Source: an uncultured Bacteroidota bacterium
Lineage (GTDB): Bacteria > Bacteroidota > Bacteroidia > Chitinophagales > Chitinophagaceae
Direction: 5' to 3'
NCBI GenBank assembly: GCA_903854725.1
Contig: CAINWZ010000144.1
Coordinates: forward strand, 1,212 to 65,211
Length of the DNA stretch: 64,000 nucleotides
Made by a program: the position numbers and the translations under genes. Positions 22,349 through 31,353 of this stretch are shown in pieces (positions within the stretch are counted from its first letter, which is position 1; every line of letters begins with the position of its first letter). Below the pieces are notes generated by a model. It was not told where the DNA came from. It ran no database searches and saw nothing but the letters and a program-made list of their open reading frames with translations.

Positions 22349-23686
22349 TTAAAGTTTCAATAATTGTTTAATTTGTTGCTCTACTTTAACAATTTCCATA
22401 GAAGCCATCACTTTTTGCATACTTGCCGCTATTTGAGTGGTGCAAAGATTACCAATACTGCCCTCATGTGTATGCTTGATTTGAGTAGAATAGGTGAATT
22501 TACCCGCTTCGATATCCAAACCTACTTGTTTATAAGCATCTCTAAATGGCATTCCCCCAGCAACTAATTTATTTACTTCCTCCACACTAAACAAATATTG
22601 GTATTTAGGATCTTCCAATAAATCTTTTTTCACTTCCATATGCTGTATCATTAAAGAAGCCATTTCGATGCAATTTTTTAATTGTGTGAAAGCGGGAAAT
22701 AAATGCTCTTTCAATAATTGTAAATCACGATGATAGCCTGAAGGCAAATTAGTGGTCATCATCATTATTTCATTCGGCAAGGCTTTAATTCTATTGCAAT
22801 AAGATCTTATTAATTCAAAAACATCTGGATTTTTTTTATGTGGCATGATGCTCGAACCCGTAGTTAATTCATCAGGGAATTGAATGAAGGCAAAGTTTTG
22901 ATTCATAAATAAGCAAGCGTCCATACTTAATTTTGATAGCGTATCTGCAATATTGGCTAATGCCATAGCAGTCACACGCTCCGCTTTACCACGACCCATT
23001 TGTGCATACACCACATTATAATTTAATGCATCAAAGCCTAAAAGTTCGGTAGTTCTTTTTCTATTAATAGGAAAAGAAGATCCATAACCAGCTGCCGACC
23101 CTAAAGGGTTTTTATTAACAATAGTATAAGCAGCTTGTACCATCGTCATATCATCTACCAAACTTTCTGCATAAGCGCCCAACCACAAGCCAAAAGAAGA
23201 AGGCATGGCTAATTGCAAATGCGTATAGCCAGGGAGCAAATCATTTTTATGTGCCTCACTTTTTTCTTGTAACAAAGTAAAAAATGTTTGTATTGCATTA
23301 CTCATGCTAATTAATTCAGCACGTAGAAATAATTTTATGTCCACTAAAACCTGATCGTTTCTGCTTCTTGCACTATGAATTTTTTTGCCAATATCTCCTA
23401 GGCTTTCCGTTAACATCATTTCTACTTGCGAATGAATGTCTTCCACACCAGAATCTAATGTAAAAGCTCCTGCCTGTATTTTTTGATAGATGTCAACTAA
23501 TGCTTTTTTTAGTTTTGTTTGCTCGATGGCCGTTAATAAGCCAACCTCCGATAACATAGTAGTATGCGCGATAGAACCCAATACATCATAGGCCGCCAAA
23601 TATTGATCCATGGCTTGATCATTTCCAATGGTAAATTTCTCCACCAGTGCTGATACTTTATTATTTTTTTGCCAGAGCTTGTTCAT
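22349..23686 (-). CDS. argH: Argininosuccinate lyase
   Basis: HSARSRNDQ, PGYTHLQ, GSSIMPHKKNPD. Confidence 0.97.
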   Translation of the reverse strand: MNKLWQKNNKVSALVEKFTIGNDQAMDQYLAAYDVLGSIAHTTMLSEVGLLTAIEQTKLKKALVDIYQKIQAGAFTLDSGVEDIHSQVEMMLTESLGDIGKKIHSARSRNDQVLVDIKLFLRAELISMSNAIQTFFTLLQEKSEAHKNDLLPGYTHLQLAMPSSFGLWLGAYAESLVDDMTMVQAAYTIVNKNPLGSAAGYGSSFPINRKRTTELLGFDALNYNVVYAQMGRGKAERVTAMALANIADTLSKLSMDACLFMNQNFAFIQFPDELTTGSSIMPHKKNPDVFELIRSYCNRIKALPNEIMMMTTNLPSGYHRDLQLLKEHLFPAFTQLKNCIEMASLMIQHMEVKKDLLEDPKYQYLFSVEEVNKLVAGGMPFRDAYKQVGLDIEAGKFTYSTQIKHTHEGSIGNLCTTQIAASMQKVMASMEIVKVEQQIKQLLKL

Positions 23687-23688
23687 AA

Positions 23689-24783
23689 TTACACTATTTT
23701 TTCAAGTAATTGTATATAAGTTACTATTCCTTCTTCTATTTCTTTACTATATATAAACTCATCTGCAGTATGGCTTCTAGCAGAGTCGCCAGGCCCCATT
23801 TTCAAAGTAGGAAATGGCATTAATGCTTTGTCTGAAGTGGTAACCGACCCATAATAGCCTTTACCCAAATCAGTGCCTGCTTTCACTAATACGTGGTCGA
23901 GTTCAATACTTGTCGAACGCAATCTAAGGCTTCTTGGGGTTACTGTTGATTGCACATTTTCTTTGATGGTAGTTAATACTTCTTCAAAACTATACAATTC
24001 ATTTACCCTAACATCTACAACCATTTTGCAAGTAGAGGGAACTACATTGTGTTGTTTATTATCTGTCTCTATGACGGTGGCCGTCATTTTTACCTTTCCT
24101 AATAAGTTGGATACTTTTTCAAATTGATGGTTTTGAAACCAATGTAAGTCAGGTAATATTTTATATAAAGCATTCTCGCCTTCTTCTCTGGCAGCGTGCC
24201 CTGCTTTACCAGTACTAACTACATCTAAAACTAATAAACCTCTTTCCGCAATGGCCATTTCCATTTTAGTAGGCTCTCCTACGATTCCAAAATTAATTAC
24301 AGGTAATTCAGGTAAGACTAATTCTATACCATCATGGCCAGAAATTTCTTCTTCGGCAGAAGCCACAAATACAATATTGTGAGCTAGAGTAGGGATTGCA
24401 TAAAAGTGTAAAAAGCAAGCCAATAAGCTTACTAAACATCCGCCTGCATCATTACTACCCAATCCATAAACTTTACCCTCTTGTTCAATTGGATTAAACG
24501 GATCTACTGTATATCCTTTATTAGGTCTTACTGTATCATGATGCGAATTCAATAAGATAGTAGGTTTAGTAGTGTCAAAATGTAAATTGGTTGCCCAAAT
24601 ATTATTTTTTACTTTTTTAGTAGCAATATTTCTGTCGGTAAAAAATTGCACTAGCACTTGTGCAGTTTTATCTTCTTCTTTACTAAAAGAAGGAATAGCG
24701 ATTAATGTTTTTAATAAATCAAGCGCGTCTTTTTGTAAGACACTTATAGTATTATTGTTTTGTATATTATTTGTTTGTGACAT
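23689..24783 (-). CDS. argE: M20 family N-acyl-ornithine/citrulline deacylase (ArgE-like)
   Basis: NSHHDTV, GSNDAGG, AEEE, GEPT, HTADE zinc ligands; located in the arg operon. Confidence 0.85.
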   Translation of the reverse strand: MSQTNNIQNNNTISVLQKDALDLLKTLIAIPSFSKEEDKTAQVLVQFFTDRNIATKKVKNNIWATNLHFDTTKPTILLNSHHDTVRPNKGYTVDPFNPIEQEGKVYGLGSNDAGGCLVSLLACFLHFYAIPTLAHNIVFVASAEEEISGHDGIELVLPELPVINFGIVGEPTKMEMAIAERGLLVLDVVSTGKAGHAAREEGENALYKILPDLHWFQNHQFEKVSNLLGKVKMTATVIETDNKQHNVVPSTCKMVVDVRVNELYSFEEVLTTIKENVQSTVTPRSLRLRSTSIELDHVLVKAGTDLGKGYYGSVTTSDKALMPFPTLKMGPGDSARSHTADEFIYSKEIEEGIVTYIQLLEKIV

Positions 24784-25565
24784 TAGTGGGTGATTGTGGT
24801 ACCTGCAGTACCATTAATTAATTCATTCATTTTTTCGGCCTTCCCAATGATGACTGATTGTACACCATTGTCAAGCGCCAAATACGCGTTGTCAATTTTA
24901 GGAATCATACCTTCAAATATGACTTTTTGATTTTTTAGTGTACCGTATAACGGTCGATCTAAACGCAAAATAACTGAACTAGGATCATTCACATCCTTCA
25001 GTACGCCTTCTTTTTCAAAACCATAAATTAAATGCACAGCATACTTTGCAGACAATGCAGTGGCCAAACTTTGTGCAATAGTGTCTGCATTGGTATTCAA
25101 CAATTGCCCTTTCCCGTCATGGGTAATGGGCGCCACTACTAATTTTGTATTAGCAGAAAGCAATTGTATCAGCAAATCGGTATTCACAGAATCAATATCC
25201 CCTACCCATCCATAATCAATGGCGGTATTCGTTCTTTTATGTGCTTGAATTAAATTACCATCTACCCCAGATAAACCCATCGCATTAACTCCTAATGCAT
25301 GTAACTGTGCAACTATATTTTTATTGATATAGCCCGCATATACCATGGTTACAATTTTTAAAGTAGCCTCATCTGTTACACGCCTTCCTTCTATCATGGT
25401 TTGTGGAACACCCATTGAATCTGCCATATTGGTGGCCAATTTTCCGCCACCATGCACTAAAATAGCATGGCCCTTTACTTTCGCAAAAGATTGCAAGCAA
25501 GTTGATAACAATGCTGGATTGTCTACAATATTGCCTCCTATTTTAATAATATACAATGATTCCAT
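24783..25565 (-). CDS. argB: Acetylglutamate (N-acyl-glutamate) kinase
   Basis: IKIGGN, VHGGG, GRRVTD, LLNTNADT, GMIPKIDNA; TAATG coupling to argE. Confidence 0.95.
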   Translation of the reverse strand: MESLYIIKIGGNIVDNPALLSTCLQSFAKVKGHAILVHGGGKLATNMADSMGVPQTMIEGRRVTDEATLKIVTMVYAGYINKNIVAQLHALGVNAMGLSGVDGNLIQAHKRTNTAIDYGWVGDIDSVNTDLLIQLLSANTKLVVAPITHDGKGQLLNTNADTIAQSLATALSAKYAVHLIYGFEKEGVLKDVNDPSSVILRLDRPLYGTLKNQKVIFEGMIPKIDNAYLALDNGVQSVIIGKAEKMNELINGTAGTTITH

Positions 25566-25596
25566 GACTTATTGAATGAACTCTTTTTATTTTTAA

Positions 25597-26571
25597 TTAA
25601 ATATTTATTGCTTTTAATATTTCTGCTAAAACAGCTTGTGCTGCCCATACTCTATTAGAAGCTTCTTTGGTCACTAAACTATTAGGGCCATCCAAAATTT
25701 CGTCACTTAATTCAACATTTCTTCTAACAGGCAAGCAGTGCATGAGTTTTGCATTATTAGTAAGCGCTAATTTTTGATTGTTCATCATCCAATGCGCATC
25801 GCTGCATAACACTTTCCCATATTGCTCATAACTACTCCAATTTTTTACATACACAAAGTCGGCGTCTTTCAAAGCAGCTTCTTGATTATGTGTAATAGTT
25901 GCCCCCTTGGTGTAGTCAGTAGCAAGTTCATACCCCGCTGGGTGTGTAATAACAAAATCTGCTTCTCCCCAAGCACCCATCCATTCACTAAAACTATTTG
26001 CAACACATTGAGGAATAGGTTTTATATGTGGCGCCCAGGTTAAAACAATTTTTGGTTTTTTATTTTTGAAAATGTCATTAACAGCCATTGACTCTTGGAT
26101 GGTTATGATATCTGTTAATGATTGTAGCGGATGCAGGGTTGCGCTCTCTAAGCTTACTACCGGAATGCCTGCATATTGTATAAATTGTGAAATAATTTTT
26201 TCACTATAATCCGCTTCTTTATCTAGTAAACTAGGAAAAGTACGAATACATAAAATGTCAAAATAATTACCAAATACAGGGGCTGCATCTTTAATATGTT
26301 CTACCGTACTTCCATTCATGATGGCCCCTTCGGCAAATTCTAAGGCCCAGCCTTCTTTATCTATATTGAAAACAATGGGCTCCATGCCTAAATTTTGAGC
26401 TGCCACTTGTGTACTTAATCTTGTTCTTAAGCTTGGATTTAAAAAAAGTAAACCAATACGTTTGTCTGCACCTAATTTTTTATCACTAAAAGGTAATTTT
26501 TTATACACCAAGGCTTTGGCTACTAAAGCATTAATATCATGCACATCTTTAACAGAAATAAATTGCTTCAT
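25597..26571 (-). CDS. argF: N-acyl-ornithine carbamoyltransferase (ArgF'), predicted N-succinylornithine-specific
   Basis: FLNPSLRTR, HPLQ, TWAPH, KNWS and HCLPVRRN of the AOTCase/SOTCase family; Val at the specificity position (NGSTVEH). Confidence 0.88.
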   Translation of the reverse strand: MKQFISVKDVHDINALVAKALVYKKLPFSDKKLGADKRIGLLFLNPSLRTRLSTQVAAQNLGMEPIVFNIDKEGWALEFAEGAIMNGSTVEHIKDAAPVFGNYFDILCIRTFPSLLDKEADYSEKIISQFIQYAGIPVVSLESATLHPLQSLTDIITIQESMAVNDIFKNKKPKIVLTWAPHIKPIPQCVANSFSEWMGAWGEADFVITHPAGYELATDYTKGATITHNQEAALKDADFVYVKNWSSYEQYGKVLCSDAHWMMNNQKLALTNNAKLMHCLPVRRNVELSDEILDGPNSLVTKEASNRVWAAQAVLAEILKAINI

Positions 26572-26580
26572 AGTAAAACT

Positions 26581-27732
26581 TTAAGTTGTCTTATTTGAAA
26601 TGAGGTGAATGGCATCTGATAAGCCCTTTAAAAATAAATCAATATCTGATGAAGTAATAGTTAAAGCCGGTAACAAACGTATCACATTAGGCTTTGCTTC
26701 ACCTGTAAATATTTTAAAATTTTCTAGTAACACTTTTCTTAGGTCTGCAAATGCAGGTTCCATTTCAAAACCAATCATTAACCCTTTTCCTCTTACTGCC
26801 TTCACTCCTTTTATATTTTGCAAAGCTTCCATTAATGTTTTCCCTTTTTGAGCGGCAGCCTCCATTAAATTTTCTTTTTCCATTACTTCAATTACGGCCA
26901 ATGCTGCTGCACAAGCCAATGGATTACCACCGAATGTGGTACCTAATAAACCAAATTTTGCTTTAATATGCGGTGCAATTAAAATGCCGCCAATAGGAAA
27001 TCCATTGCCCATTCCTTTTGCCATTGAATAAATATCGGCATGCACGCCTGCAAAATCATGTGAGAAAAATTTACCCGAACGGCCATAACCGCATTGAACA
27101 CTATCTGCAATATAGACTGCCCCGTATTGATCACATTGTTGACGAATGGCTTGTAAAAAAACATTGCTTGCCTCATAAATACCAGCAACACCTTGAATGC
27201 CCTCAATAATGACAGCTGCAATTGTATTTGCATTTTCAGCAAAACATTTTTCTAAAGCTGCTACATCATTGAAAGGTAAAAAAATAATATTATCTGTTTC
27301 ATTCACAGGTGCCACAATACTTGCATTGTCTGTTGCAGCCACTGCTAATGAAGTACGCCCATGAAAAGATTTTGAAAAAGCAATGATTTTTTTTCTGCCT
27401 GTATGAAAAGAAGCTAATTTTAAAGCATTCTCGTTTGCCTCGGCACCGCTATTACATAAAAATAATTCGTAGTCTGTTTTTCCACTTATTTTATTTAAAG
27501 CGGTGGCCAATTGTTCCTGAATGGGCATGATCACAGAATTGCTATAAAAGGCAATGGCATGCAATTGATCTTCGATGCGGTTTACCCAATGTGGATGCGT
27601 ATGACCAATGCTTATAACTGCATGACCGCCATACATATCTAAATACTCCATTCCTTTTTCGTCCCACACATGACTTCCCAATGCCTTTGTAATGGAAATG
27701 GGTTGTAATGGATATACTTTAAATAAAGACAT
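26581..27732 (-). CDS. argD: Acetylornithine/succinylornithine aminotransferase
   Basis: NSGAEANE, FHGRT, DSVQCGYGRSG, MAKGMGNG, TTFGGNP. Confidence 0.93.
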   Translation of the reverse strand: MSLFKVYPLQPISITKALGSHVWDEKGMEYLDMYGGHAVISIGHTHPHWVNRIEDQLHAIAFYSNSVIMPIQEQLATALNKISGKTDYELFLCNSGAEANENALKLASFHTGRKKIIAFSKSFHGRTSLAVAATDNASIVAPVNETDNIIFLPFNDVAALEKCFAENANTIAAVIIEGIQGVAGIYEASNVFLQAIRQQCDQYGAVYIADSVQCGYGRSGKFFSHDFAGVHADIYSMAKGMGNGFPIGGILIAPHIKAKFGLLGTTFGGNPLACAAALAVIEVMEKENLMEAAAQKGKTLMEALQNIKGVKAVRGKGLMIGFEMEPAFADLRKVLLENFKIFTGEAKPNVIRLLPALTITSSDIDLFLKGLSDAIHLISNKTT

Positions 27733-27742
27733 GTTGACTATT

Positions 27743-28726
27743 TTAAAAATTACTTGCTTTTAATTGAAGCCCTGCTATTTCAGGCAAGCCCATCATTAAA
27801 TTCATATTTTGTACCGCCTGACCTACTGCACCTTTTAATAAATTATCAATGGCAGTATGCACTACCATTTTATTGTCTTGTTGTTCAATATGAATTAAAC
27901 ACTTATTCGTATTCACTACTTGTTTTAAATCAATTGCATTTTTAGAAACATGCGTGAAAGGATGCCAATCATAATAATGCGTATACATTTCATATAACGC
28001 TTCCAATGTCAACTTCGTTTCAATAATAGAGCTTGCAAAAATACCTCTCGTAAAATCACCTCTCCATGGCACAAAATGTACTGCTGCTTTTTTATTGCCT
28101 TGTAATTGATGTAAACTTTGTGTTATTTCAAATAAATGTTGATGTTGTAATGTTTTGTAGGGTTGGATATTATTGGCTCTCCAACTAAAATGACTCGTAG
28201 AAGATAAACCTTGTCCCGCACCAGTAGATCCAGTGATACCAGTAGTGTAAACAGATTCCAATAATCCCTTCTCCGCCAAAGGCAATAAGCCTAATTGAAT
28301 GGCTGTTGCAAAACAACCCGGATTGGCAATATTTTGAGCAGACTGTATAGCCGCTTTGTTTAATTCTGGGAGTCCATAGATAAAATGTCTATCCCCTTGC
28401 GCTGCTGCAGCAGTCAATCTAAAATCTTGTGATAAATCTATCATTTTTATACTTGGCGCTATGGTATTTGTTTGTAAGAATTTAATAGCTTCTCCGTGTC
28501 CCACACATAAAAATAAAATATCAATATTTTGATCGATAGTATTTGTAAAAATCAATTCAGTATCTCCCACTAAATCAGTATGCACCGAACTCACTAAATT
28601 CCCTGCATTGCTAGTACTATGCACAAATGATATAGCGCTATTGGGATGGTGCAATAATACACGCAGTAATTCACCGCCTGTATAACCCGCTCCTCCTATT
28701 ATGCCAACTTTAATGAATGGTATCAT
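27743..28726 (-). CDS. argC: N-acetyl-gamma-glutamyl-phosphate reductase
   Basis: GGAGYTGGEL, ANPGCFAT, DNLLKGAVGQAVQN. Confidence 0.96.
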   Translation of the reverse strand: MIPFIKVGIIGGAGYTGGELLRVLLHHPNSAISFVHSTSNAGNLVSSVHTDLVGDTELIFTNTIDQNIDILFLCVGHGEAIKFLQTNTIAPSIKMIDLSQDFRLTAAAAQGDRHFIYGLPELNKAAIQSAQNIANPGCFATAIQLGLLPLAEKGLLESVYTTGITGSTGAGQGLSSTSHFSWRANNIQPYKTLQHQHLFEITQSLHQLQGNKKAAVHFVPWRGDFTRGIFASSIIETKLTLEALYEMYTHYYDWHPFTHVSKNAIDLKQVVNTNKCLIHIEQQDNKMVVHTAIDNLLKGAVGQAVQNMNLMMGLPEIAGLQLKASNF

Positions 28727-28741
28727 CTTTGTAGTTTAAAA

Positions 28742-29941
28742 TTATTTTTTATTCGATTCTTTTATTTGATGAAAGATGCTAGTTTGATTACCAAATATTT
28801 TAGTGAATCCTCTCACATCCGCACCCGTCCAACCGGTATTCATCTCACCATATTTTCCAAATTTTGCACTCATTAAATCATTTTCAGATTCAATGCCAAT
28901 AATTTGAAAACGATATGGATACAATTGTATAGAAACTGTTCCAGATACCTGTTCTTGTGAACTAGTTAAATACGCTTCTATATCGCGCATCACTGGATCT
29001 AAAATTTGTCCTTCATGCAACCAGTTGCCATAGAATTGTGCCAATTGATCTTTCCAAGACAATTGCCATTTGGTTAAAACATGTTTTTCCAAAGCATGAT
29101 GTGCTTTTAAAATAACCATTGGCGCAGCCGCTTCAAAACCAACACGGCCTTTAATTCCTATGATAGTATCCCCCACATGAATGTCCCTTCCAATACCATA
29201 AGCACCTGCTATAGATTGTATATATTGAATGGCTTCAGTTGGATGAGTAAATGTTTTTTTATTGACCGTTTTAATTTCTCCTTTCTCAAAACCAATCACC
29301 ATTTCTTCTTCTTGACCTTCTTTGGTCATAGGTGTTGGCCATGCAGTTTCGGGTAACATACCCTTGGATTGTAAGGTTTCTTTTCCCCCTACACTGGTTC
29401 CCCACAAACCTTTATTAATAGAATAGGCAGCTTTTTCAAAATTCATTGCTACCCCTTTTTCTTTTAAGTACGTAATTTCTGCTTCTCTACTTAATTGCAA
29501 ATCACGAATGGGTGTTAAAATTTCAACCCCTGGAATCATAACTTGAAAAATCATGTCAAAACGAACTTGATCATTACCTGCTCCTGTACTTCCATGTGCT
29601 ACTTTTTGAGCACCTAATTTTTTTACATGCGCTGCAATATGAAGCGCTTGGCTTAAACGTTCTGCACTTACACTTAAAGGATAGGTATTGTTTTTTAGCA
29701 CATTACCGTATATTAAATATTTAATAATGCTATCATAATAACCCTCCACCGCATCCACTGTTGTGTGCGATTTTACACCTAATGCATAAGCGTGTGCTTC
29801 TATTTTTTTTAGCTCTTCTTGCGTAAACCCACCTGTATTCACTACCACACTGTGCACTGCCAATCCCTTATCTTCTGTTAAATACTTAACACAATAAGTG
29901 GTATCTAATCCGCCGCTAAAACCTAAAATTACTTTTTCCAT
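28742..29941 (-). CDS. argG: Argininosuccinate synthase
   Basis: GFSGGLDT, HGSTGAGNDQVRF, KGRVGFEA. Confidence 0.97.
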   Translation of the reverse strand: MEKVILGFSGGLDTTYCVKYLTEDKGLAVHSVVVNTGGFTQEELKKIEAHAYALGVKSHTTVDAVEGYYDSIIKYLIYGNVLKNNTYPLSVSAERLSQALHIAAHVKKLGAQKVAHGSTGAGNDQVRFDMIFQVMIPGVEILTPIRDLQLSREAEITYLKEKGVAMNFEKAAYSINKGLWGTSVGGKETLQSKGMLPETAWPTPMTKEGQEEEMVIGFEKGEIKTVNKKTFTHPTEAIQYIQSIAGAYGIGRDIHVGDTIIGIKGRVGFEAAAPMVILKAHHALEKHVLTKWQLSWKDQLAQFYGNWLHEGQILDPVMRDIEAYLTSSQEQVSGTVSIQLYPYRFQIIGIESENDLMSAKFGKYGEMNTGWTGADVRGFTKIFGNQTSIFHQIKESNKK

Positions 29942-29948
29942 TTGTTTA

Positions 29949-30593
29949 TTATTTTCTAAACCAGTTTAATAATTTACTTTGTTTTATTTTCATAAAGCGT
30001 TCATACAACTTTGAATTATTTGAAAACTCAGTGACCACTTCATGAATGTCATGAGGCTGCTTTGGTTCAAATAACATTGCTGTACACATACAATTTTTAC
30101 GCTCCTTACTCATTAATATATCATAATTCACACAACTTTTACAGCCTGCCCAAAACTCTTCATCATCCGTTAGTTCACTATACGTGACAGGCTCGTAACC
30201 TAATTCACTATTTATTTTCATTACTGCTAAGCCAGTTGTTAATCCAAATATTTTAGCAGTAGGATATTTTTCTCTTGACAATTGGAAAATAGTTTGCTTA
30301 ATTTTTTTAGCGATCCCTGTTTTTCTAAAAGCAGGTGCTACAATTAAACCACTATTGGCCACAAACTGTCCATGTTGCCATGCTTCGATATAACAAAACC
30401 CAACCCAGGTTCCATCTTCAGTATGTGCAATAACCGATTTTCCTTCGTTTATTTTTTTAGCGACATAGTCTGGACTACGTTTAGCAATACCAGTGCCACG
30501 TGCTTTAGCCGAAGAAGCCATTTCATCTGTAATGGCATTTGCAAAAGAAGCGTCACCACTATGGGCAACACGTACTATTATTTTCTGTTCCAA
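29949..30593 (-). CDS. GNAT-family acyltransferase heading the arg operon (ArgA role candidate), TTG start
   Basis: GTGIAKRS, FVANSGLIVAPAFRKTGIA, CKSC...CMC. Start placed at TTG 30593 (LEQKIIVR) after an A-rich leader; the tracked 28-aa extension lies in the leader RNA. Confidence 0.8.
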   Translation of the reverse strand: MEQKIIVRVAHSGDASFANAITDEMASSAKARGTGIAKRSPDYVAKKINEGKSVIAHTEDGTWVGFCYIEAWQHGQFVANSGLIVAPAFRKTGIAKKIKQTIFQLSREKYPTAKIFGLTTGLAVMKINSELGYEPVTYSELTDDEEFWAGCKSCVNYDILMSKERKNCMCTAMLFEPKQPHDIHEVVTEFSNNSKLYERFMKIKQSKLLNWFRK

Positions 30594-30657
30594 TGAGCTT
30601 TTAAATTTAGGAAAGTACAATTCTGGCGAAAGAGAGGTTCTTTTGGGGCTTTTTCCA

Positions 30658-30742
30658 CTGATAGGGGCAAGTGCCAATTGCTCGTCCTATCAGAATCCAC
30701 GTCGGTAGAAATAACCTACGATTCGTGGCATGCAAATAGGAC
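30658..30742 (-). promoter_or_regulatory. Alternative hairpins in the arg operon leader (candidate attenuator)
   Basis: On the mRNA, CUGAUAGG (overlapping the leader stop codon) pairs with downstream CCUAUCAG, while AUAGGAC can instead pair with upstream GUCCUAU inside the leader ORF. Confidence 0.5.
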
Positions 30743-30815
30743 TCGGGCCATTCAAAACAGGAACGGGTGCATTATAAGCACTAGTCAATAAAATATGTAA
30801 TTGTTCCTGTTTCAT
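30690..30815 (-). CDS. Putative arginine leader peptide (41 aa; or 13 aa from the ATG at 30731)
   Basis: MKQEQLHILLTSAYNAPVPVLNGPSPICMPRIVGYFYRRGF*. Arg codons CGA, CGA, CGT cluster at the C-terminus, directly upstream of the arg operon. Confidence 0.5.
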   Translation of the reverse strand: MKQEQLHILLTSAYNAPVPVLNGPSPICMPRIVGYFYRRGF

Positions 30816-31026
30816 TAATAATTTCCTTTTGTATAGGAATGAGAGCGTAAAAATAGTTAATAAAATAGACAAAATGCCTTGAATTGGGCTATAATTTGCA
30901 GTTTAAAGCCTTGCGGGACGCTAATTTCCTTCGAAATGAATGAGTGTTAGTTTTTTCTTGGCCTATTTGATTCGTAATTTTGATCTAAATAGAATTAAAT
31001 TTCAGCAACAACAAAATATAAAAATT

Positions 31027-31353
31027 ATGAAAATAATCATTTCAAGTAGCCTTCTTCTTGCTTCCCTATTGGTTGTATCATGTGGTGAAAATAAAGAGAA
31101 AGCAAATAGCTCTGCAGCCGATACAACGCAAATAGCCACGACAGATACTGCAACTGAAAAAACTTTTGCTATAAGCTTAGTGAACAATAAAAAAGACCCT
31201 ACTTGTGGCATGCCTGTAACAGCAGGTATAAGCGATACCGCACATTATGAAAATTTAGTACTAGGATTTTGTTCTACAGAATGCAAGAATGAATTTCTAA
31301 AAAATCCTAAAGCTAGTTTAGCCGCTGCAGAAATTACAAAGCCGACTAACTAA
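31027..31353 (+). CDS. YHS-domain lipoprotein
   Basis: Lipobox VVSC, Thr/Ala linker, KDPTCGMPV...GFCSTECKNEF. Start placed at MKIII (31027). Confidence 0.8.
   Translation: MKIIISSSLLLASLLVVSCGENKEKANSSAADTTQIATTDTATEKTFAISLVNNKKDPTCGMPVTAGISDTAHYENLVLGFCSTECKNEFLKNPKASLAAAEITKPTN

What the first reader, a model, noticed from the sequence alone, without database searches (positions are those of the whole stretch)
30594..30860. Candidate undescribed arginine-sensing leader-peptide attenuator ahead of the arg operon
Seen: the untranslated-looking region upstream of the GNAT start holds a uORF ending ...MPRIVGYFYRRGF* with Arg codons CGA, CGA-CGT. Its stop codon lies in the 5' arm of an 8-bp stem (CUGAUAGG/CCUAUCAG, 30658-30693). 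That arm can instead pair with GUCCUAU inside the uORF (30736-30742), so the two structures are mutually exclusive. Downstream, GGAAA can pair with UUUCC next to the TTG start region. No argR is in the cluster. Established: ribosome-stalling attenuators are known for many amino acids, but bacterial arg operons are usually controlled by ArgR. Inference: ribosome position at the Arg codons picks the fold. There is no classic U-tract, so control may be translational or Rho-dependent.
Basis: partly seen in the sequence, partly recalled or inferred. Interest (0 to 1): 0.75.

Follow-up and report, generated by a model that had tools for sequence, protein, structure and literature searches.

The report
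Arginine-codon leader peptide before arg operon
In front of the arginine-synthesis operon of this freshwater Sediminibacterium there is a small, strongly conserved upstream reading frame that ends in two rare arginine codons and stops inside a conserved RNA hairpin; it most likely lets ribosomes report arginine supply in a bacterial family that lacks the usual arginine repressor, a control I could not find described for arginine synthesis.

Summary
On the minus strand, a 41-codon uORF (30815-30690) ends ...Y-R(CGA)-R(CGT)-G-F-UGA. Its stop codon lies in the 5' arm of hairpin P2 (30693-30658), 64 nt ahead of the TTG start of GNAT-argGCDF'BEH.

Comparative data support a function:
- In 115 distinct Sediminibacterium-type leaders the frame is always open. 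The tail is P-R-P-R-R-G-[F/C]-UGA, with synonymous variation at Pro and Gly but CGA in 114 of 115. CGA is only 6% of Arg codons in this genome.
- Across 30 other Chitinophagaceae genera, 27 carry an upstream frame ending in Arg-Arg.
- ArgR is absent from 45 of 46 genomes checked.
- P2 shows compensatory changes. Its apical loop covaries with a downstream loop, giving a kissing or pseudoknot contact.
- In five metatranscriptomes a close relative's RNA starts just upstream of the uORF. There the leader is several-fold deeper than the operon body.

Folding gives no sign that the GNAT start is masked.

Best reading: an Arg-tRNA-sensing leader peptide controlling premature termination. In this lineage that is probably Rho-assisted, since there is no U-tract and the spacer is C-rich and unstructured. 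The output step is inferred, not shown.

The parts
30848..30873 (-). Promoter-like elements of Bacteroidota type: TTTG (30873-30870) and TATTTTTA (30855-30848, matching TAnnTTTG in 7 of 8 positions). The predicted transcript start lies about 30841-30828.
   Evidence: The motif TAnnTTT[A/G]C is conserved at the same place in relatives. In relative L042 the homologous box is at 1825-1832. RNA contigs begin at 1852-1863, with no RNA between the upstream gene and that point. That this is the consensus is established knowledge of Bacteroidota promoters, not tested here.
30823..30839 (-). P0: small hairpin UUCC(30839-30836)/GGAA(30826-23) between promoter and uORF start. Its 3' arm is a Shine-Dalgarno-like AGGAA.
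   Evidence: Predicted in the minimum-energy fold. UUCC/GGAA here becomes CUCC/GGAG in L042. Seen in the MKQ clade only (the leaders whose uORF peptide begins Met-Lys-Gln); not analysed further.
30690..30815 (-). Leader uORF, 41 codons plus UGA: MKQEQLHILLTSAYNAPVPVLNGPSPICMPRIVGYFYRRGF*
   Evidence: The frame is open for at least 20 codons in 115 of 115 distinct leaders. In the other two frames the median open length is 14-18 codons, and 64-72 of 115 are shorter than 20. The start RTG-AAR-CAG is conserved.
30755..30812 (-). P1: long-range helix inside the uORF (AAACAGGAAC 30812-30803 with GUUCCUGUUU 30764-30755). It encloses the small hairpin P1b (30781-30778 / 30770-30767).
   Evidence: Alignment A3 of 22 MKQ-clade leaders: 86% of cells paired against 34-50% when the partner is slid, and 6 pairs show double changes.
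30699..30704 (-). Regulatory Arg dicodon CGA-CGT (a further CGA lies at 30725-30723).
   Evidence: Position -4 is CGA in 114 of 115 leaders (1 AGA). Position -3 is CGT in 90 and CGC in 25. CGA is 6% of Arg codons (1.9 per 1000 codons) in 960 long ORFs of this genome. Family-wide the tail Arg codons are CGA 40, CGT 17, CGC 6, AGA 4, AGG 3.
30658..30693 (-). P2 hairpin. Outer stem CUGAUAGG/CCUAUCAG holds the UGA stop (30692-30690). Internal loop is ACGA (30685-30682) opposite C30666. Inner stem is GCAA/UUGC. Apical loop is UUGGCAC (30677-30671).
   Evidence: An exact copy occurs once per genome in 119+ genome records. Covariation in A1/A2: outer pair CG 34 / UA 31 / UG 2; inner pairs GC/AU and CG/AU. 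93-96% of cells are paired against 29-43% when slid. The covariance model finds it in 96 of 301 family genomes and 49 of 151 genera.
30623..30627 (-). GCCAG, the likely pseudoknot partner of the P2 loop UUGGC (30677-30673).
   Evidence: GCCA is present in 39 of 49 spacers with a UUGGCA loop. In other genera the P2 loop and the loop of a small downstream hairpin (P4) change together: TAACCA:TGGTTA, TCACCA:TGGTGA, TTACCA:TGGTAA, GACCA:TGGTC, CACC:GGTG, TGCCG:CGGCA, TTGGCA:TGCCAA. The flanking position is Watson-Crick in 14 of 41 (permutation p 0.03).
30594..30657 (-). Spacer between P2 and the GNAT start: C-rich, G-poor, weakly structured, with no terminator.
   Evidence: C exceeds G in 112 of 112 leaders (C 0.24, G 0.13; control upstream regions 0.14/0.14). 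Mean MFE is -5.5 kcal/mol and mean z +0.35; the window's z is +1.56. No hairpin+U-tract is found in the window.
22349..30593 (-). Regulated operon: GNAT (TTG 30593-29949), argG, argC, argD, N-acylornithine carbamoyltransferase, argB, ArgE/DapE-family deacylase, argH.
   Evidence: ORFs; NCBIfam matches. A weak TTG/GTG start of GNAT is conserved in relatives.

Best explanation
This is a ribosome-mediated, arginine-responsive leader of the arg operon. Transcription starts about 15-25 nt upstream of a 41-codon uORF.

The uORF ends with the rare dicodon CGA-CGU. Both codons are read by the single tRNA-Arg(ACG/ICG). Two further codons follow, then a UGA that sits at the 5' base of hairpin P2.

When charged tRNA-Arg is scarce, the lead ribosome parks on CGA-CGU. 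Its front edge then just reaches the base of P2, so P2 folds and its apical loop pairs with GCCAG about 45 nt downstream. This compact fold is the ON state.

When arginine is plentiful, the ribosome runs on to UGA and melts the 5' arm of P2. The C-rich 3' arm and the C-rich, unstructured spacer are then naked while RNA polymerase crosses the spacer, and transcription ends prematurely (OFF state).

In this lineage there is no U-tract, so termination is probably Rho-dependent. In relatives that have a small hairpin plus a U-run at the same place, that hairpin may act as a weak intrinsic terminator which the P2 loop-loop contact disarms.

Shown: conservation of the uORF, the codon choice, P2 and the loop contact; absence of ArgR; transcription of the leader and its excess over the operon body in relatives.

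Inferred: translation of the uORF, stalling, the sign of the response and the termination step.
For: - Anatomy is as stated.
- The frame is open in 115 of 115 leaders. Pro at -5 uses all four codons (22/20/19/14). Gly at -2 is GGT 61 / GGA 49 / GGG 2. Arg at -6 is CGA 44 / AGG 10 / AGA 9. CGA at -4 is fixed in 114 of 115.
- CGA is 6% of Arg codons, and one tRNA-Arg(ACG) gene is found.
- An unbiased family sample found through GNAT gives 27 of 30 genera with a frame of at least 20 codons ending in RR. Controls are 6 of 30 on the reverse complement and 2.5 of 30 in shuffles. The stop is TGA in 24 of 27.
- ArgR_C is absent in the own genome and in 45 of 46 relatives, while the control genomes score.
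- P2 covaries and is single-copy in 96 of 301 family genomes.
- The loop-loop partner covaries.
- Constrained folding of 112 leaders gives P2 probability 0.91 with a ribosome on the first Arg codon, 0.29 on the second and 0.00 at the stop. In the window the values are 0.98 (first Arg codon) and 0.00 (stop), against 0.04 for free RNA.
- The spacer is C-rich, G-poor and unstructured. Rho is present.
- Metatranscriptome contigs on relative L042 start at 1852-1863 (uORF ATG at 1861). Leader depth is 72 against 27, then 10, then 3-8 downstream in one run. The leader also exceeds the operon body in four further runs, with scattered 3' extents of 2056-2229.
- A classical RRRR* leader with a terminator stands before the same operon in another family of the order.
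Against: - No experiment or Ribo-seq shows that the uORF is translated or that arginine changes anything.
- Only two or three Arg codons are present.
- In most leaders free RNA folds P2 anyway (probability 0.79). The ON/OFF difference must therefore be kinetic, set while the ribosome sits at the stop, which folding energies cannot test.
- The 1:2 alternative that would make a thermodynamic switch is not conserved.
- The window has no terminator. Only 13% (strict) to 50% (lenient) of Sediminibacterium spacers have one.
- The largest Sediminibacterium clade (loop CUGGCAC) keeps the loop invariant but has no complementary partner downstream (5 of 63). Something else constrains that loop.
- RNA depth comes from assembled contigs of a relative, not reads of this organism. 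A stable leader fragment would look the same.
- Conservation of Pro and Gly in the tail hints that the peptide itself may matter.
Confidence: 0.6

Rival explanations
1. Free-arginine-sensing arrest peptide. The nascent Pro/Arg-rich tail (P-R-P-R-R-G-F), together with L-arginine in the exit tunnel, blocks RF2-mediated release at UGA. The ribosome stays on the stop codon when arginine is high and holds P2 open, giving OFF. The logic is that of fungal AAP, TnaC or SpeFL rather than codon starvation.
For: Selection acts at the amino-acid level in the tail: Pro at -5 uses all four codons and Gly at -2 uses three. UGA is the stop in 24 of 27 family leaders. The stop codon always sits at the base of a stem. 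The sign of regulation would be correct.
Against: The residues after the Arg pair differ between leader types: RRGF/C, RRRP[E/V][C/F], VRR-stop, RRPRI. No common arrest motif exists apart from the Arg codons. The fixed rare CGA (114 of 115), against abundant AGA elsewhere, points to a codon or tRNA effect, because an arrest peptide would accept any Arg codon. The third base of the last codon and the UGA are also constrained by the stem.
Confidence: 0.12
2. Translational control. The leader fold chosen by the uORF ribosome masks or exposes the weak TTG start of GNAT, for example through GGAAA/UUUCC. There would be no effect on transcription.
For: GNAT starts with a conserved weak TTG/GTG. The window has no terminator. 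GGAAA/UUUCC can pair.
Against: The unpaired probability of the GNAT start region is 0.53-0.54 in all four modelled states across 112 leaders. The spacer is less structured than shuffles. Translational control alone does not predict the leader RNA excess over the operon body seen in five runs.
Confidence: 0.1
3. P2, with its partner loop, is the binding site of a trans factor: a protein, a small ligand or an RNA. That factor is the real sensor, and the uORF only positions ribosomes or is secondary.
For: The P2 loop and the ACGA internal loop are conserved far beyond what base pairing needs. In the CUGGCAC clade the loop has no cis partner. The element is single-copy and specific to the arg operon.
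Against: The stop codon is tied to the stem base in every type A and type C leader. The Arg dicodon sits at a fixed 2-3 codon distance from it, which points to ribosome-hairpin interplay. No candidate regulator is encoded beside the operon. Rfam has no match. A T-box-like reading fails: the tRNA-Arg discriminator is A, whereas the loop reads UGGC.
Confidence: 0.08
4. The conserved block is not regulatory for arginine. It could instead be, for example, a 5' stabiliser or processing element, with the uORF a by-product.
For: There is no functional data, and the leader RNA is abundant in metatranscriptomes.
Against: The element is specifically associated with the arg operon. Arg-Arg tails recur in three structurally different leader types and in another family. 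Reading-frame conservation and the rare-codon choice also argue against it.
Confidence: 0.05

Closest known systems
Classical leader-peptide transcription attenuators (trpL, hisL, pheL, leuL, thrL, ilvL of Proteobacteria; the Bacteroid-trp leader of Bacteroidota)
   Same: A short translated leader ORF sits ahead of a biosynthetic operon. It carries tandem codons of the pathway's own amino acid near its end. The ribosome position decides which RNA structure exists while polymerase crosses the leader. The leader transcript exceeds the operon body.
   Different: The amino acid is arginine, for which I found no described attenuator of arg biosynthesis genes. The window has no intrinsic terminator and no conserved 1:2 / 2:3 / 3:4 set. 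The stop codon is built into the conserved hairpin. That hairpin makes a covarying loop-loop contact with a downstream element. No Rfam family matches.
Rho-dependent leader-peptide systems: tnaC-tnaAB of E. coli, mgtL/mgtA and mgtP/mgtCBR of Salmonella, orf34/SpeFL-speF
   Same: A leader ORF whose ribosome position or stalling controls access of Rho to an untranslated C-rich stretch before the first gene. For orf34, arginine codons are involved (PMC6386406).
   Different: Rho dependence is only inferred here, from composition and the lack of a terminator. The sensed signal is most likely charged tRNA-Arg rather than free Trp, Pro or ornithine. The target is the arginine biosynthetic operon.
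rbfL leader peptide of Staphylococcus aureus (PMC13009471)
   Same: A small uORF senses arginine limitation through rare Arg codons read by a scarce tRNA.
   Different: rbfL uses AGA/AGG, and the paused ribosome blocks the ribosome-binding site of a biofilm regulator, giving repression under starvation. Here the codons are CGA/CGU, the target is arg biosynthesis, stalling should activate, and the uORF stop is 100 nt from the next start.
Fungal arginine attenuator peptide (uORF of arg-2 / CPA1)
   Same: An upstream ORF controls an arginine-biosynthesis gene in response to arginine, with events at the uORF stop codon.
   Different: AAP senses free arginine through the nascent peptide in a eukaryotic scanning system, and it shows no sequence similarity to this peptide. 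Here codon identity, not peptide identity, is the universal feature.
ArgR/ARG-box repression and Arg T-boxes
   Same: They regulate the same set of genes in other bacteria.
   Different: ArgR is absent from this genome and from 45 of 46 relatives. T-box features are not met.

Membership tests
Classical leader-peptide transcription attenuator | Short translated ORF in the 5' leader of an amino-acid biosynthetic operon | tested here: met
   A 41-codon uORF sits 100 nt upstream of GNAT-argG.... The frame is kept open in 115 of 115 leaders against medians of 14-18 codons in the other frames, and its tail codons vary synonymously. RNA contigs of a relative include the uORF. Translation itself is not shown.
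Classical leader-peptide transcription attenuator | Tandem codons for the regulating amino acid | tested here: met
   CGA-CGY is present in 115 of 115 leaders, often with a third Arg codon at -6. An RR tail is found in 27 of 30 genera, against 2.5 of 30 in shuffles.
Classical leader-peptide transcription attenuator | Mutually exclusive antiterminator and terminator hairpins sharing a segment | tested here: not met
   No 3:4 partner of the P2 3' arm was found. The 1:2 pairing is not conserved (mean z -0.16). P2 and the downstream hairpin are separate elements joined by a loop-loop contact.
Classical leader-peptide transcription attenuator | Intrinsic terminator (hairpin plus U-tract) before the first structural gene | tested here: not met
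   There is none in the window. A terminator-like site is present in 13% (strict) or 50% (lenient) of Sediminibacterium leaders, against 2% or 16% of shuffles.
Classical leader-peptide transcription attenuator | Premature leader transcripts in excess over the operon mRNA | tested here: inconclusive
   On relative L042 the leader contig depth exceeds the operon body in 5 of 5 metatranscriptomes. These are assembled contigs of a relative, and exact 3' ends are unknown.
Rho-dependent leader attenuation (tna, mgtA type) | C-rich, G-poor, unstructured untranslated stretch (rut-like) after the leader ORF, and Rho present | tested here: met
   C is 0.24 and G 0.13, with C above G in 112 of 112 leaders against 0.14/0.14 in controls. 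Mean z of folding is +0.35. The Rho RNA-binding domain is found in the genome.
Rho-dependent leader attenuation (tna, mgtA type) | Termination abolished by Rho inhibition or mutation | not testable with these tools
   This needs bicyclomycin or rho mutants in a cultured strain.
Effector-sensing arrest peptides (TnaC, SpeFL, fungal AAP) | Conserved peptide motif needed for stalling at the stop codon with the free ligand | tested here: inconclusive
   The tail P-R-P-R-R-G-[F/C] is conserved within type A with synonymous codons. Other leader types end VRR*, RRPRI* or RRRPEC*. Stalling was not tested.
T-box riboswitch (Arg) | UGGN element complementary to the NCCA end of the cognate uncharged tRNA, plus a specifier codon | tested here: not met
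   tRNA-Arg(ACG) ends A-CCA, whereas the window's P2 loop reads UGGC. The UGGN/NCCA-like elements pair with each other in cis and swap sides between genera. Rfam T-box gave no hit.
ArgR regulon | ArgR repressor encoded in the genome | tested here: not met
   PF02863 is absent in the own genome and in 45 of 46 relatives, while controls are positive.

The most novel reading that the evidence does not exclude
The P2 hairpin and its kissing partner may form a small sensor RNA in its own right. The near-invariant ACGA internal loop (it contains an Arg codon and resembles the ACGR loops of guanidine-II riboswitches) and the loop-loop contact would bind arginine/guanidinium or another arginine-linked factor. 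The leader would then combine a ribosome-based tRNA-Arg sensor with a direct RNA sensor. This could also explain why the P2 loop is invariant in the clade that has no cis partner.
Probability: 0.05. Interest if true: 0.92.

Novelty: new variant of a known kind. Interest (0 to 1): 0.72.

Why it matters
Textbook accounts say bacterial arginine synthesis is controlled by the ArgR repressor. They list leader-peptide attenuation for Trp, His, Phe, Leu, Thr and Ile/Val but not for Arg.

Here a whole family (Chitinophagaceae) lacks ArgR. It carries instead, once per genome, a conserved Arg-codon leader before the arg operon.

The type found in this window is present in about a third of the genera. 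Its expression platform differs from the classical terminator/antiterminator set: the stop codon is built into a conserved hairpin, and the hairpin's loop contacts a downstream loop.

If confirmed, this would:
- extend attenuation to arginine;
- explain how abundant freshwater and soil Bacteroidota regulate the pathway;
- give a compact, testable example of how ribosome position can be read out through a tertiary RNA contact, or through Rho, in a phylum that does not use Shine-Dalgarno initiation.

The fixed use of the slow CGA codon also offers a handle on tRNA-Arg(ICG) decoding as a physiological sensor.

Tried and rejected
- Rfam scan of the leader at E up to 10 gave only noise.
- Sigma-70 and terminator scan found no terminator in the leader. 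The one terminator-like site lies inside GNAT (30571-30550). It is kept in only 6 of 112 relatives, so it is chance.
Mean z is -0.16 over all leaders and -0.96 in the MKQ clade, and the pairing is absent in the nearest relative.
- Masking of the GNAT start: accessibility does not change between modelled ribosome positions.
- A 3:4 pairing of the P2 3' arm with the 5' half of the downstream hairpin (CAGGAC) was checked by eye only. It did not change together with the variable P2 pair, so I dropped it.
- A pseudoknot partner in the CUGGCAC clade: GCCA is present in only 5 of 63.
- A T-box-like reading of UGGN/NCCA fails because the discriminator base does not fit.
- RNA of the window's own strain: public RNA runs hold only relatives at about 89% identity. 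I therefore used the close match to relative L042.
- Four full-text literature searches for an arginine leader or attenuator of arg genes found no such description. They returned only rbfL, orf34/speF and eukaryotic AAP-type cases.
Full report
**Setting.** The finding lies on the minus strand. The ORFs downstream are a GNAT acetyltransferase (TTG 30593 to 29949), argG, argC, argD, an N-acylornithine carbamoyltransferase, argB, an ArgE/DapE-family deacylase and argH, ending at 22349. Record titles of near-identical loci place the organism in Sediminibacterium, family Chitinophagaceae. The assembly is 2.29 Mb in 176 contigs and 93% complete.

**Check of the observation.**
- The reading frame ends ...ATG CCA CGA ATC GTA GGT TAT TTC TAC CGA CGT GGA TTC TGA, with the stop at 30692-30690.
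- The longest listed version starts at TTG 30872. A conserved promoter-like motif (TTTG 30873-30870; TATTTTTA 30855-30848) places that TTG upstream of the transcript. ATG 30815 is therefore the likely start, giving 41 aa that begin MKQ.
- The stop lies in CUGAUAGG (30693-30686), which pairs with CCUAUCAG (30665-30658).
- GUCCUAU (30742-30736) can pair with the same arm, and the minimum-energy fold of the whole leader uses that pairing.
- There is no hairpin+U-tract in the leader.
- Rfam has no match.
- No ArgR C-terminal domain is found in the genome, while the control genomes score.

**The block is conserved far beyond its surroundings.** I found the GNAT gene in 24 of 40 relatives and read the upstream regions. 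Of the 22 other genomes of the genus with a GNAT match, 20 have the upstream region on the contig. All but one of those carry the block CGACGYGGWTKCTGATAGGACGAGCARYTGGCAMTTGCCCCTATCAGTGRAAA. This holds even where GNAT is only 72-79% identical and the flanks cannot be aligned. The hairpin pattern occurs once per genome and in at least 119 public genome records.

**The uORF behaves like a translated frame.** These counts come from 115 distinct leaders.
- The frame that ends at the UGA is open for at least 20 codons in all 115. In the other two frames the median open length is 14-18 codons, and 64-72 leaders fall below 20.
- uORF length and sequence vary, but the tail is P-R-P-R-R-G-[F/C]-stop.
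- Pro at -5 is encoded by CCT/CCA/CCC/CCG 22/20/19/14 times.
- Arg at -6 is CGA 44, AGG 10, AGA 9.
- Gly at -2 is GGT 61, GGA 49, GGG 2.
- Arg at -4 is CGA in 114 of 115. Arg at -3 is CGT 90 / CGC 25.

In 960 long ORFs of this genome CGA is 6% of Arg codons and AGA is 53%. One tRNA-Arg(ACG) gene reads CGA/CGU/CGC. So some positions are selected as amino acids, while the Arg pair is selected as particular slow codons of one tRNA.

**The device is family-wide and takes several forms.** In 30 other genera, found through GNAT and therefore not biased by the hairpin pattern, 27 have a frame of at least 20 codons that ends with Arg-Arg within its last six residues, 30-260 nt upstream of GNAT. The controls give 6 of 30 on the reverse complement and 2.5 of 30 in shuffles. 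The Arg codons in those tails are CGA 40, CGT 17, CGC 6, AGA 4, AGG 3, and the stop is TGA in 24 of 27.

Three designs appear:
- Type A, as here: ...RRG[F/C]* or ...RRRP[E/V][C/F]*, with the stop in CUGAYAGG...CCURUCAG.
- Type B: ...VRR*.
- Type C: ...VRRPRI*, with the stop in CUGAUAUUCC...GGAAUAUCAG.

A genome of another family in the same order has MKIASNIFFHTSRSYRRRR* followed by a textbook terminator. ArgR is missing in 45 of 46 genomes of the family and order. The earlier notes of this scan report similar Arg-codon leaders in other Bacteroidota. I treat them as leads only.

**Hairpin P2 is an RNA structure.** In alignments of 26 and 69 type A leaders, 93-96% of cells pair, against 29-43% when the partner is slid.
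- The fifth outer pair is C-G in 34, U-A in 31 and U-G in 2.
- The inner stem switches GC/AU and CG/AU and uses G-U pairs.
- The four-base internal loop ACGA opposite a single C is nearly invariant.

A covariance model built from the alignment finds one copy in 96 of 301 family genomes, covering 49 of 151 genera.

In most non-Sediminibacterium genera a small hairpin (GGAYUGGUNAUCC, here called P4) lies about 30 nt after P2. Its loop is complementary to the P2 apical loop, and the two change together: TAACCA:TGGTTA, TCACCA:TGGTGA, TTACCA:TGGTAA, GACCA:TGGTC, CACC:GGTG, TGCCG:CGGCA, TTGGCA:TGCCAA. The position flanking the ACC:GGU core is Watson-Crick in 14 of 41 (permutation p 0.03, not corrected for phylogeny).

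In the window the P2 loop UUGGC (30677-30673) can pair with GCCAG (30627-30623). GCCA is present in 39 of 49 spacers whose loop is UUGGCA, but in only 5 of 63 whose loop is CUGGCA. The contact is therefore not universal, and the invariant loop of that second clade remains unexplained.

**What the ribosome would do.** I folded 112 leaders with a 26-nt stretch held unpaired to mimic a ribosome.

| Modelled state | P2 probability (112 leaders) | P2 probability (window) |
|---|---|---|
| Ribosome with first Arg codon in the A site | 0.91 | 0.98 |
| Ribosome with second Arg codon in the A site | 0.29 | 0.007 |
| Ribosome at the stop codon | 0.00 | 0.00 |
| Free RNA | 0.79 | 0.04 |

It is not conserved, however. 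Pairing of the upstream region to the P2 arm is no better than in shuffles over all leaders (mean z -0.16) and only mildly better in the MKQ clade (-0.96). The nearest relative lacks the segment. The conserved geometry is different: the Arg codons sit 2-3 codons before a stop that is the first paired triplet of P2. A ribosome starved at the Arg codons therefore abuts an intact P2, and a terminating ribosome melts it.

**Output.** The unpaired probability of the GNAT start region is 0.53-0.54 in every state, so I see no support for masking of the start.

The stretch from the P2 3' arm to the start codon is C-rich and G-poor in 112 of 112 leaders (C 0.24, G 0.13, against 0.14/0.14 upstream of other genes). 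It also folds slightly worse than dinucleotide shuffles, with mean z +0.35 and +1.56 for the window. Rho is encoded in the genome.

Hairpin+U-run motifs in the spacer are enriched but weak and not universal: 13% strict and 50% lenient, against 2% and 16% in shuffles. There is none in the window.

**RNA evidence from relatives.** Public RNA runs do not hold this strain. Many freshwater metatranscriptomes do hold the conserved block with varied flanks.

One relative, L042, matches a run at about 99%. Its landmarks are uORF ATG 1861, P2 1965-2000, small hairpin 2022-2039, U7 2043-2049 and GNAT TTG 2065.
- In that run there is no RNA from 1500 to 1856.
- A 194-nt contig of word depth 72 covers 1863-2056.
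- Depth then falls to 27, 10 and 3-8 along the operon.
- Four further runs from other studies give contigs that start at 1852-1899 and are separated from the upstream gene by a gap.
- In those runs the leader is deeper than the operon body (12.9 against 0-4; 6.8 against 0-3.6; 2.3 against 0; 2.6 against about 2), and 3' extents scatter from 2086 to 2229.

It fits premature termination with scattered ends. The data are assembled contigs, though, so depth and ends are rough, and a stable leader fragment would look the same.

**Mechanism I commit to (confidence about 0.6).** This is a leader peptide that senses charged tRNA-Arg at CGA-CGU.
- Starved ribosome: P2 and its loop contact form while polymerase crosses the spacer, and transcription reads through.
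- Ribosome at the UGA: P2 is open, the C-rich RNA is naked, and transcription ends prematurely.

In the window, termination is most likely Rho-dependent. In relatives such as L042, the small hairpin plus U-run may be a weak intrinsic terminator that the P2 loop disarms.

The rivals are a free-arginine arrest peptide at the UGA (0.12), translational control (0.10), a trans factor that binds P2 (0.08) and no arginine regulation at all (0.05). A T-box-like reading was tested and fails.

**Comparison and novelty.** It works like the classical leader-peptide attenuators and like the Rho-dependent tna/mgt leaders. It fails two defining tests of the classical family: shared-segment antiterminator/terminator hairpins, and an intrinsic terminator. 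Arginine-codon sensing by a uORF has been shown for rbfL of S. aureus (PMC13009471) and proposed for orf34-speF of Salmonella (PMC6386406). Neither controls arginine synthesis. Four full-text searches found no description of an Arg leader before arg genes. I rate it a new variant of a known kind, with an unusual expression platform.

Noticed in passing
L170, L173, L174, L176 (other Chitinophagaceae genera), about 150-205 nt upstream of GNAT: Type B leaders (...VRR*) carry a clean terminator-like hairpin plus a U5-U7 run (for example CUGUACAGCUCCGUACAG UUUUUUU) inside the uORF coding region, upstream of the final Arg pair. This is a different design, in which translation itself would have to disrupt the terminator.
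   Followed up: partly
L024:1380-1450 (another family of the same order): Classical Arg leader before the same GNAT-arg operon: MKIASNIFFHTSRSYRRRR*, followed by an 8-bp hairpin and UUUUU.
   Followed up: partly
L009 (genome G008, same genus): This leader has the usual uORF up to ...FFFR. It lacks P2 and most of the spacer, as if about 100 nt were deleted between CCGAC and TGTTCATTC. This is either a natural constitutive variant or an assembly error in a 78%-complete genome.
   Followed up: no
window 30823-30839 (-): A small hairpin UUCC/GGAA lies between promoter and uORF start. Its 3' arm is a Shine-Dalgarno-like AGGAA about 8 nt before the ATG. It becomes CUCC/GGAG in L042. This is odd for a phylum that rarely uses Shine-Dalgarno sites.
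   Followed up: no
window 30755-30812 (-): A helix that starts at codon 2 of the uORF and closes 48 nt later, with covariation, would hide the region just downstream of the start codon once it is transcribed. It may limit loading to the first, polymerase-coupled ribosome.
   Followed up: partly
window 30671-30677 (-) and 63 relatives: In the largest Sediminibacterium clade the P2 apical loop (CUGGCAC) is invariant, yet no complementary partner is present downstream (5 of 63). The 7-nt loop has the outline of an anticodon loop (Y-U-GGC-A-N). What constrains it is unexplained.
   Followed up: partly
window 30550-30571 (-): A terminator-like hairpin plus UUCUUUUG lies 22 nt inside the GNAT coding region. 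It is kept only in the closest relatives (6 of 112), so it is probably chance.
   Followed up: yes
window 30591-30593 (-) and relatives: The first gene of the operon starts with TTG or GTG in nearly all type A leaders. A conserved weak start codon is unusual.
   Followed up: no
window 30940-31353 (+): A divergent 137-aa ORF has a lipoprotein-like signal (…LLVVSCGENK) and a CGMPV motif. It has no NCBIfam match.
   Followed up: no
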